This document shows, one piece after another, positions 31,021 to 45,087 of a stretch of DNA of 64,000 nucleotides. The stretch comes from the human T2T-CHM13v2.0 reference genome, Homo sapiens, in assembly GCF_009914755.1 (NCBI RefSeq), contig NC_060925.1. One strand, given 5' to 3'. The notes under the pieces are model-generated. The model saw nothing but the letters and a program-made list of their open reading frames with translations. It made no database searches and had not been told where the DNA came from. Position 1 is the first letter of the stretch, and every line of letters starts with the position of its first letter. Made by a program: the position numbers and the translations under genes.

Positions 31021-32210
31021 AAACTCACCAAAATGAATAGTTGTTTCGTTACATTTAGATGAAAGTTAAACTTTACTGAATTTCAGTACATTAGTTTTTA
31101 CACTAAAACTTTACAAGATAAAATTGGACTTCATTTAGTATCTTTTTAACAGAATTACTTGGAATAATGAGATACAATAATCATATCTCTTTTGACATTT
31201 TGGAAATTTTTTTAATTTTACAAGTACATTTAACAGATCATTTATAAAGCAGGAGTCCATTTTAACACTTACCGACTTTTTTTGGTTTGGAAACATATTA
31301 CCACGTCTTAATAGGATGGTGCCCATATAGGTGAGCATCCCTTTAGATCATGGGAACCAGCAGACTGCATTCCTAATCTTCATTATGCCTGAGACTTGTC
31401 TTACAATGTTACCTTTAAGTGAATCACATAATTGTCTTTGGAACTTGGTCTCCCAACACTTATTGTGATTGCAAAGTGTTTACCAGATATTTGATGAGGT
31501 GCTATGTTTGTGAAAAACATATCATGTAATTCAAAAACACTATTGATATTGAATACCAGATACCACTATGTAGTAAGTCTTTTAGGATGATTTTAATTTA
31601 GTCGTGCGTCATTTTCTGATTCTCATCATTGGGAGATCTTAAATCTTAGCAAGCATTAGCAATATTAAATGCCAAAATTCCATTGAAACTTTCAAGTTGG
31701 AGCAATTGTCTGTGTTTGAAAAGATGAAATAAAAATAATAATCAAGGGCAAAGCTTTGAGTGCCCAGAAGGGAAAGCTGTACCAGTTGCTAACCTGTCTT
31801 GTTTCAGGAGCCACCATGTTTTTTTTTCAGTGTTAACAACAATCATGATAATTAAATTAAAACACTAGTTTGTTCACTTGTAGGACTGCAGTTCTGAATT
31901 TTGGGTTAAAGGTTTTGGCTGCTGTAAGAATGTGAATTTGAATGTATTTTGAATTGTAAGAGCAAAAGAACGTTTTTGTACAATTTTTTTTCATTTAATT
32001 GGAATGATCTTCAGGTTTCTACAAATAGGGTAATTGTAAATTTAAAGCATTAGCATTTATTGGTGAATAATGTATATATCCCCATTCCAAGAAATATAAG
32101 TGAGTGAAGTTGAAATAAAATCTTTAAAATTTACTATATTGCCAGTGGTTTCACAACAGTTCTCTTGTATTTATTTATCAATTAAATCAAATAAAAATGA
32201 TTATGTCAAT
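31021..32210 (+). other. KCTD3: KCTD3 3'UTR (3' end approximate)
   Basis: Repeat-free AT-rich sequence after the stop; AATAAA at 31728, 32114 and 32190, ATTAAA at 32181. Confidence 0.75.
32181..32195 (+). terminator. KCTD3: KCTD3 distal polyadenylation signals (ATTAAA and AATAAA)
   Basis: ATTAAAtcaAATAAA with U-rich upstream and U/GU-rich downstream sequence. Confidence 0.7.
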
Positions 32211-39213: not shown

Positions 39214-39435
39214 CAGTCCACTGTTGTGGCCCATGATGGCTTCCCACAGTGAGTTGTCCATCAAGACTTTCTTGTCTTGAATGTCCATGAGCTGGCTGAC
39301 GCTGCGGTGAAGAGAACCCTGGGAGTAGGTTAGGCTGGTTTGGTTTTGACTCGGGATGCGCAGGACACATGCACTCCGGTTGCTGCGGATACTCACAGGT
39401 GTCCCAGACCGGGGAATTTTGGTATCGGCTAACCC
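39214..39435 (-). CDS. USH2A: USH2A exon 71, cytoplasmic tail: GLADTKIPRSG...WEAIMGHNSGL
   Basis: cttctCAG acceptor, CTG|GTGAGT donor, 222 nt, phase 0 to 0; inside ORF 38998..39465. Confidence 0.95.
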
Positions 39436-40130: not shown

Positions 40131-40434
<304 letters not shown>

Positions 40435-40548
40435 ATTTCTTTTCTTTTTTCAGTAGAGTTTTCACTCATGTTGTTCAGCTTTCCAAGGAATGGATATATG
40501 GAAGTCATCAATGATCTGTTCCTGCTTTTCACTGTGCAGTCAACACAC

Positions 40549-40574
40549 CATGCAAAAGATCATGCATTCATGCA
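40549..40574 (-). promoter_or_regulatory. Cluster of three RBFOX elements (UGCAUG) downstream of the USH2A 72-nt cassette exon
   Basis: CATGCA on the + strand at 40549, 40561 and 40569. Confidence 0.75.
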
Positions 40575-40588
40575 GCACACAGAGGTAC

Positions 40589-40660
40589 CTCAAAGTGCAT
40601 GGTGTAACTTTTTAGGGTGACATTGCTTGACACATCAGATATATCAGCCACAGAGTCAAA
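40589..40660 (-). CDS. USH2A: USH2A alternative 72-nt cassette exon (inner-ear-type): FDSVADISDVSSNVTLKSYTMHFE
   Basis: ttgttctCAG acceptor, GAG|GTACCT donor, 24 open codons, phase 0 to 0 matching the exon 70/71 junction; peptide recalled from the mouse usherin tail. Confidence 0.88.
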
Positions 40661-40704
40661 CTGAGAACAAATGGCAGCATCAGTCCATGTTTGGAACAGT
40701 TTTA

Positions 40705-41443
<739 letters not shown>

Positions 41444-44842: not shown

Positions 44843-45087
44843 CATATGGTTTTCCCCCGGTGGGTAAACATTCAATGGAGACATCCTCTTCTGAAGAGGT
44901 ACCAAGGGAGGTCTTTCTCTGATATATGGCTCTTTGTGGATTTTTCTTTGTAGTATCAGGGACAGAAAAATGGCCAACAAGATCAAGCCCAGCATCGCCA
45001 TTAACACTATGAACCACAGCTCGCTGTAGAACTCTGTGCTTTTGCTCCGCGATCCCTTCTTTTTCTCAGGAGTTGTTAGGACCAAGC
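44843..45087 (-). CDS. USH2A: USH2A exon 70: juxtamembrane region, TM helix WFIVLMAMLGLILLAIFLSLIL and start of the cytoplasmic tail
   Basis: ttttgCAG acceptor, ATG|GTATGT donor, 245 nt; ORF 44831..45085. Confidence 0.96.

What the first reader, a model, noticed from the sequence alone, without database searches (positions are those of the whole stretch)
40540..40588. Triple UGCAUG (RBFOX) plus GU-rich enhancer directly behind the cassette exon's weak donor
Seen: the intron after the exon reads GUACCUCUGUGUGC-UGCAUG-AA-UGCAUG-AUCUUU-UGCAUG-GUGUGUUG, three perfect hexamers within 26 nt starting 15 nt from a poor donor (GUACCU). Knowledge: downstream RBFOX sites promote inclusion; GUGUG and UGGUG motifs are bound by RBM24/RBM38 and ESRP1, factors linked to inner-ear splicing. 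Inference: this is the tissue switch for the usherin tail isoform.
Basis: partly seen in the sequence, partly recalled or inferred. Interest (0 to 1): 0.78.

Follow-up and report, generated by a model that had tools for sequence, protein, structure and literature searches.

The report
Splicing enhancer behind usherin's ear exon
Right behind the small exon that the Usher-syndrome gene USH2A is reported to use only in the inner ear lies a tight cluster of binding motifs for known splicing activators, which probably helps switch that exon on but has not been tested.

Summary
A 72-nt in-frame exon at 40589-40660 is absent from the hub's gene table. It matches the published "cochlea-specific exon 71" (24 aa). 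It is followed by GAG|GUACCU and by three UGCAUG at +15, +23 and +35. GUGUG sits at +9 and +41.

This is the only such cluster in the window. It arose in 2 of 2000 shuffles, and 0 of 15 annotated exons have a UGCAUG within 100 nt.

The best reading is a composite downstream splicing enhancer of the RBFOX type plus the RBM24/RBM38 type. [quoted passage not shown] Photoreceptors are reported to lack Rbfox1/3, and Rbfox2 is listed as an outer-hair-cell gene.

Several points remain unshown:
- Motif conservation could not be tested, because no vertebrate genomes were available.
- Protein binding and factor dependence were not tested.
- The donor is only moderately weak, ranking 12 of 16.
- The claim that this is "the tissue switch" is inference.

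None of my 10 literature searches linked this exon to a regulator. I rate it a new member of a known kind, of moderate interest.

The parts
40589..40660 (-). 72-nt alternative exon of USH2A, the published cochlea-specific 'exon 71' (24 aa). It is not in the hub's gene table for the selected RefSeq transcript.
   Evidence: Open in frame 0 and in frame with the flanking annotated coding exons. Flanked by AG and GU. Size and position match literature passages.
40583..40591 (-). Donor site GAG|GUACCU, with C at +4 and +5.
   Evidence: U1 duplex energy is -5.7 kcal/mol, rank 12 of 16 exons in the window. Of the 15 annotated donors printed there, 11 have G at +5, by my count.
40575..40581 (-). GU element 1, UGUGUGC (+8..+14). 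GUGUG starts at +9, one base before UGCAUG no. 1.
40569..40574 (-). UGCAUG no. 1 (+15..+20).
   Evidence: Predicted unpaired probability 0.46.
40561..40566 (-). UGCAUG no. 2 (+23..+28).
   Evidence: Predicted unpaired probability 0.36.
40549..40554 (-). UGCAUG no. 3 (+35..+40), directly abutted by GUGUG.
   Evidence: Predicted unpaired probability 0.07, because it pairs with the exon's 3' end.
40541..40548 (-). GU element 2, GUGUGUUG (+41..+48). UGGUG overlaps at +39.
40596..40606 (-). Exonic arm (UACACCAUGCA) of a predicted 11-bp helix. The other arm is 40544-40554. The helix loops out the donor and UGCAUG no. 1 and no. 2.
   Evidence: Minimum-free-energy and centroid structures. Pair probabilities are 0.78-1.0 for the 9 inner pairs and 0.39-0.76 for the two end pairs, in 5 sequence contexts. 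It is not better than chance once the motifs are given: 1033 of 5000 shuffles were as good.
40661..40679 (-). Acceptor region: UGCUGC at -19..-14, then CCAUUUGUUCUC, then AG.
   Evidence: The UGC motifs lie 5' of the pyrimidine tract.

Best explanation
The 49 nt after the donor of the inner-ear USH2A exon form a composite intronic splicing enhancer. Three RBFOX-type UGCAUG sites (+15, +23, +35) are bracketed by two RBM24/RBM38-type GUGUG sites (+9, +41).

Proposed mechanism (inferred):
- In hair cells an RBFOX protein, most likely RBFOX2, binds this platform, with or without RBM24.
- Binding helps U1 snRNP use the sub-optimal GAG|GUACCU donor, so the 72-nt exon is included.
- In photoreceptors, the other main site of USH2A expression, RBFOX is scarce. 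RBM24 there is unchecked. The exon is skipped, giving the canonical 5202-aa tail.

Shown here: the motifs, their position, their local rarity, the exon's frame, and the match to the published exon. Inferred: binding, activation, and which factor sets tissue specificity.
For: 1. Exact motif architecture.
2. It is the only UGCAUG cluster in 64 kb. 2 of 2000 shuffles match it. 0 of 15 annotated exons have a UGCAUG within 100 nt.
3. The position, +15 to +45 downstream, is where RBFOX enhances inclusion (PMC10987577 passage).
4. Direct inner-ear precedent for the GU part: Cdh23 exon 68 inclusion by RBM24/RBM38 is abolished by deleting a TGTGTG 30 bp downstream, and is reduced in Rbm24 conditional knockout ears (PMC7397384 passages).
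5. Rods and cones have no Rbfox1/3 and only low Rbfox2 (PMC5989265 passage). Rbfox2 is listed among outer-hair-cell-defining genes (PMC10337857 passage citing Ranum 2019). RBM24 protein is seen in cochlear and vestibular hair cells (PMC10018040 passage).
6. The donor lacks the usual +4A and +5G, so it could need help.
7. The stretch is single-copy in the genome and is not a tandem array.
Against: - No cross-species conservation, CLIP or knockout evidence could be obtained.
- A review states that hair cells have limited RBFOX, NOVA and ELAVL expression (PMC10987577). Its cited source does not mention hair cells.
- A 2022 review of RNA-binding proteins in hair cells has 0 mentions of Rbfox.
- Ush2a has 0 occurrences in the 4 supplementary files of a 2026 Rbm24 paper. 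It is not in the RBM24-dependent gene list quoted by PMC10018040.
- The donor is no weaker than 4 of 15 constitutive donors nearby.
- Triple-UGCAUG clusters occur 3367 times genome-wide, mostly in TG-rich low-complexity DNA.
- UGCAUG no. 3 is predicted to be base-paired.
Confidence: 0.5

Rival explanations
1. RBM24/RBM38 alone drives inclusion through the GUGUG elements, as at Cdh23 exon 68. The UGCAUG copies are bystanders or serve some other cell type.
For: Two GUGUG lie at +9 and +41, against a background of 0.09 per 100 nt. The Cdh23 exon 68 precedent has one TGTGTG at +30. RBM24 is an established hair-cell protein, whereas RBFOX is not discussed in two inner-ear reviews.
Against: Three perfect UGCAUG within 26 nt are far rarer locally than the GU motifs. 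Ush2a is absent from the Rbm24 data I could search. RBM24 was reported as mainly cytoplasmic in head sensory epithelia.
Confidence: 0.15
2. The cluster is a non-functional chance product of local TG/CA-rich low-complexity sequence. The exon is controlled from elsewhere.
For: Genome-wide there are 3367 triple clusters against 130 for the reversed control, and those listed are mostly degenerate TG-rich repeats. A long AT/CA microsatellite lies 140 nt upstream of the exon. Conservation is untested.
Against: Tandem Repeats Finder finds no array here at score 30. The spacers (AA, AUCUUU) are not TG repeats. The cluster begins 15 nt behind a documented tissue-specific exon. 0 of 15 other exons in the window have even one site.
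Confidence: 0.15
3. SRRM4 (or SRRM3) is the main activator, acting through the UGCUGC upstream of the acceptor. The downstream cluster is only auxiliary.
For: UGC lies at -19 and -16. SRRM4-dependent hair-cell exons need a UGC/GC motif by the pyrimidine tract (PMC3464207 passages).
Against: Here the UGCs lie 5' of the pyrimidine tract, not near its 3' end as in that paper's logo. Ush2a has 0 occurrences in supplement file 13, which I take to be the table of exons skipped in bv mice, and in files 2-12. Files 14-18 were not searched, and the exon may not have been assayed at all.
Confidence: 0.08
4. The active element is an RNA helix between the exon's last codons and UGCAUG no. 3 plus GUGUG. 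It constrains the donor in a loop and favours skipping unless opened.
For: An 11-bp helix appears in the minimum-free-energy and centroid folds. Its 9 inner pairs have probability 0.78-1.0 in 5 contexts, and its two end pairs 0.39-0.76.
Against: The whole region folds no better than shuffles (z = +0.35). An equally good duplex arose in 1033 of 5000 shuffles that keep the three motifs, in 161 of 5000 that keep only the donor, and in 139 of 1727 genomic pieces. No covariation data exist.
Confidence: 0.05

Closest known systems
RBFOX-dependent downstream intronic splicing enhancers (UGCAUG clusters behind neuronal and muscle alternative exons)
   Same: Perfect UGCAUG hexamers in multiple copies, within 50 nt downstream of a tissue-specific cassette exon with a sub-optimal donor.
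   Different: The host gene is expressed in hair cells and photoreceptors, where RBFOX activity is poorly documented. No binding, dependence or conservation is shown.
RBM24/RBM38-dependent enhancer of Cdh23 exon 68 (PMC7397384)
   Same: An inner-ear-specific, in-frame exon that adds a short peptide to the cytoplasmic tail of a hair-bundle link protein. A UGUGUG-type motif lies a few tens of nt downstream.
   Different: USH2A has two GU elements plus three UGCAUG. In one search, 'rbfox' had 0 occurrences in the Cdh23 paper. RBM24 dependence of the USH2A exon is untested.
Fox-1 family / SUP-12 juxtaposed elements in C. elegans egl-15
   Same: A UGCAUG directly abutted by a GUGUG-type element (site no. 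3, +35..+45). SUP-12 is the worm homologue of RBM24. It forms a ternary complex with its cofactors on juxtaposed cis-elements (PMC7463526 passage and reference titles).
   Different: The worm element is a repressor-type switch between mutually exclusive exons in muscle; this detail and the exact worm sequence are recalled, not checked here. Cooperative binding by the mammalian proteins at this site is not shown.

Membership tests
RBFOX-type downstream intronic splicing enhancer | One or more (U)GCAUG motifs on the sense strand | tested here: met
   Three perfect UGCAUG on the USH2A sense strand.
RBFOX-type downstream intronic splicing enhancer | Located in the intron downstream of, and close to, an alternative exon | tested here: met
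   +15, +23 and +35 from the donor of the 72-nt exon. The exon's alternative, inner-ear use comes from literature passages.
RBFOX-type downstream intronic splicing enhancer | Motifs conserved across vertebrates | not testable with these tools
   No vertebrate genome other than the window's own is held. Only the exon is reported as conserved (PMC3207874 passage).
RBFOX-type downstream intronic splicing enhancer | RBFOX binds the site and exon inclusion depends on RBFOX | not testable with these tools
   No CLIP or knockout data were found. The search for USH2A plus RBFOX gave 35 papers, of which 20 were listed. None of those listed appears relevant by title or abstract.
RBFOX-type downstream intronic splicing enhancer | An RBFOX protein is present where the exon is included and scarce where it is skipped | tested here: inconclusive
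   Rods and cones have no Rbfox1/3 and low Rbfox2. Rbfox2 is listed as an outer-hair-cell-defining gene. One review says hair cells have low RBFOX.
RBM24/RBM38-dependent intronic enhancer | GUGUG motif in the downstream intron near the exon | tested here: met
   GUGUG at +9 and +41. The functional Cdh23 motif lies at +30.
RBM24/RBM38-dependent intronic enhancer | Inclusion depends on RBM24/RBM38 | not testable with these tools
   Ush2a was not found in the supplements of PMC13099659 or in the list quoted in PMC10018040. Zheng 2021 is not held.
SRRM4-dependent exon | [quoted passage not shown] | tested here: inconclusive
   UGC lies at -19 and -16 but on the 5' side of the pyrimidine tract.
SRRM4-dependent exon | Skipped in Srrm4-mutant (bv) hair-cell tissue | tested here: inconclusive
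   Ush2a has 0 occurrences in supplement files 2-12 and 13 of PMC3464207. Files 14-18 are unsearched, and the exon may not have been assayed.

The most novel reading that the evidence does not exclude
The site is a vertebrate counterpart of the worm Fox-1/SUP-12 composite element. An RBFOX protein and RBM24 would bind the abutting UGCAUG-GUGUG (+35..+45), and the GUGUG-C-UGCAUG at +9..+20, cooperatively. Only cells that hold both proteins, namely hair cells, would then include the exon. The predicted helix with the exon's 3' end would keep the composite site closed elsewhere. That would give a two-factor AND gate for an ear-versus-eye isoform of a deaf-blindness gene, and would give RBFOX a role in hair cells.
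Probability: 0.25. Interest if true: 0.7.

Novelty: new member of a known kind. Interest (0 to 1): 0.5.

Why it matters
[quoted passage not shown] The usherin tail binds the PDZ scaffolds harmonin and whirlin, and the ear isoform carries 24 extra residues there.

What decides ear versus eye splicing is not described in anything my 10 searches reached. A defined 49-nt candidate element makes that question directly testable with minigenes, antisense oligonucleotides, and Rbfox2 or Rbm24 conditional knockouts.

It also marks a short non-coding stretch where patient variants could impair hearing without touching the retinal isoform. Routine exon screens would miss such variants. The same stretch should be considered when designing mini-gene or splice-modulating therapies.

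Tried and rejected
- **Cross-species conservation.** It cannot be tested. Only the window's own genome is held for this lineage.
- **Literature link between this exon and a regulator.**
  - The 10 searches found none.
  - The 14-nt sequence search hit one preprint on genome language models. I saw it only as a listing and did not open it.
  - Zheng 2021 on Rbm24 inner-ear splicing is not held.
  - Adato 2005 was not read. It is known to me only through citing passages.
- **RNA helix as the real element.** Rejected as unsupported. It is no better than chance once the motifs are fixed, and the region has z = +0.35.
- **Tandem-repeat origin of the cluster.** Tandem Repeats Finder found no array there. 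A `repeat finder` call failed because I gave it the wrong strand, and I did not repeat it.
- **ESRP1.** There is only one UGGUG, so I did not pursue it.
- **MSI1.** No UAG occurs within 100 nt on either side, against a background of 1.23 per 100 nt. This fits skipping in photoreceptors but is weak evidence.
- **A plus-strand reading.** Per the hub's gene table, KCTD3 ends at 32209 and no plus-strand gene covers the site.
- **The SNORD116-like copy as part of the element.** I found no link to it.

Full report
**What is there**

Read on the minus strand, which is the sense strand of USH2A, window 40300-40900 shows a 72-nt open segment at 40589-40660. An AG precedes it (...UUGUUCUCAG|) and GAG|GUACCU follows. 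In frame 0 it has no stop codon. When placed between the annotated coding exons 44843-45087 and 39214-39435 it adds 24 residues in frame to the cytoplasmic tail of usherin.

The hub's table does not list this exon, but the literature does:
[quoted passage not shown] It places the exon's last nucleotide at c.15298-1153.
- With c.15298 at window 39435, that maps to 40588, one base from my exon end at 40589. I attribute the one-base difference to an indel between assemblies in the A-rich or Alu part of the intron. That is inference.

I did not read Adato 2005 itself.

**The observation**

UGCAUG lies at +15, +23 and +35 (window 40569-40574, 40561-40566 and 40549-40554). GUGUG lies at +9 and +41, and UGGUG at +39.

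- The window as a whole is not enriched for TGCATG: 40 found against 36.3 expected.
- This is the only place with two sites in <=30 nt or three in <=100 nt.
- Three sites in <=26 nt arose in 2 of 2000 dinucleotide-preserving shuffles.
- None of the 15 annotated KCTD3 and USH2A exons in the window has a UGCAUG within 100 nt on either side.
- The 183-nt stretch is single-copy in the genome and is not a tandem array.
- Against over-reading: the human genome holds 3367 matches to a triple-UGCAUG pattern, against 130 for the reversed control. The listed ones are mostly TG-rich low-complexity DNA.

**The donor**

GAG|GUACCU matches 6 of 9 consensus positions and lacks the usual A at +4 and G at +5. 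Its U1 duplex energy of -5.7 kcal/mol ranks 12th of 16 exons in the window, and four annotated exons are weaker. "Weak" is fair, but "poor" overstates it. No MaxEnt-type score was available.

**The acceptor side**

A plausible branch site (CUGAU) lies about 22 nt upstream. UGCUGC follows at -19..-14, then a modest pyrimidine tract that is 64% pyrimidine. [quoted passage not shown] Here the motif is on the 5' side. Ush2a does not occur in that paper's supplement file 13, which I take to be the table of exons skipped in bv mice, or in files 2-12. Files 14-18 were not searched.

**Which factors**

The RBFOX positional rule, that a downstream site enhances inclusion, is stated in PMC10987577.

For the GU part there is a close inner-ear precedent in PMC7397384 (passages):
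- Cdh23 exon 68 is also an inner-ear-specific in-frame insert in the tail of a hair-bundle link protein.
- It is activated by RBM24/RBM38, and this activation needs a TGTGTG 30 bp downstream.
- Its inclusion falls in Rbm24 conditional knockout ears.

RBM24 is a hair-cell protein, although it has been reported as mainly cytoplasmic.

For RBFOX the expression evidence is mixed:
- Rods and cones have no Rbfox1/3 and only low Rbfox2 (PMC5989265). This fits skipping in the retina.
- Rbfox2 is listed among outer-hair-cell-defining genes (PMC10337857, citing Ranum 2019).
- A review says hair cells have limited RBFOX, but its cited source contains no mention of hair cells.
- Two inner-ear reviews never mention Rbfox.
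- RBFOX3 appears only as a spiral-ganglion marker.

**A composite site**

UGCAUG no. 3 is directly followed by GUGUG. UGCAUG no. 1 is preceded by GUGUG plus one base. In C. elegans, SUP-12 is the RBM24 homologue. It forms a ternary complex with its cofactors on juxtaposed cis-elements. [quoted passage not shown]" (PMC7463526 passage and reference list). That the worm element has this same abutting order is my recollection and was not checked. It makes cooperative RBFOX and RBM24 binding the boldest reading the data allow.

**RNA structure**

Folding predicts an 11-bp helix between the exon's last codons (40596-40606) and UGCAUG no. 3 plus GUGUG (40544-40554). Its 9 inner pairs have probability 0.78-1.0 in five contexts, and its two end pairs 0.39-0.76. 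The donor and sites no. 1 and no. 2 lie in the loop.

The region as a whole is no more stable than shuffles (z = +0.35). An equally good exon-intron duplex arose in:
- 161 of 5000 shuffles that keep only the donor;
- 1033 of 5000 shuffles that keep the three motifs;
- 139 of 1727 genomic pieces.

Any UGCAUG can pair with the exon's Met-His codons, so the helix is not evidence by itself.

**Verdict**

The most likely reading (about 0.5) is a composite RBFOX plus RBM24/38 downstream enhancer of a known inner-ear exon.

Which factor, if any, sets ear-versus-eye specificity is open. Conservation, binding and dependence were all untestable here.

My searches found no description of this element or of any regulator of this exon. 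Zheng 2021 and Adato 2005 could not be read.

It is a new member of a known kind, of moderate interest, with clear medical relevance.

Noticed in passing
window 40426-40517 (-): A SNORD116-like copy lies in the USH2A sense orientation, 71 nt behind the cassette exon's donor (Rfam RF00108, 61.2 bits, gathering score 35). The match is good over model positions 1 to about 66 (C box UGAUGA present). The sequence then runs into CUGA plus an A-rich tail and an Alu, so the family's 3' part and terminal stem are missing. It is probably a truncated retrocopy, although RefSeq lists it as a snoRNA gene.
   Followed up: partly
window 40596-40606 with 40544-40554 (-): A predicted 11-bp helix joins the exon's last codons to the third UGCAUG plus GUGUG and loops out the donor. 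Pair probability is high (0.78-1.0 for the 9 inner pairs), but the helix is not better than chance once the motifs are fixed.
   Followed up: yes
window 40798-40911: A long AT/CA dinucleotide microsatellite (57 copies of period 2) lies about 140 nt upstream of the cassette exon. It also draws weak, sub-threshold Rfam microRNA hits.
   Followed up: no
window 40192-40341 (-): An Alu element gives sub-threshold Rfam hits to SRP RNA, mir-1268 and mir-3135. These are repeat-derived and not genes.
   Followed up: no
window 40561-40760 (-), +-100 nt around the exon: No UAG triplet (the Musashi-type motif) occurs within 100 nt on either side of the exon, against a background of 1.23 per 100 nt. This is compatible with the exon not being used in photoreceptors, but it is weak evidence.
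   Followed up: no
literature, not the window: The review PMC10987577 cites Weyn-Vanhentenryck 2018 for low RBFOX, NOVA and ELAVL in hair cells. The main text of that paper has 0 occurrences of 'hair cell'.
   Followed up: partly
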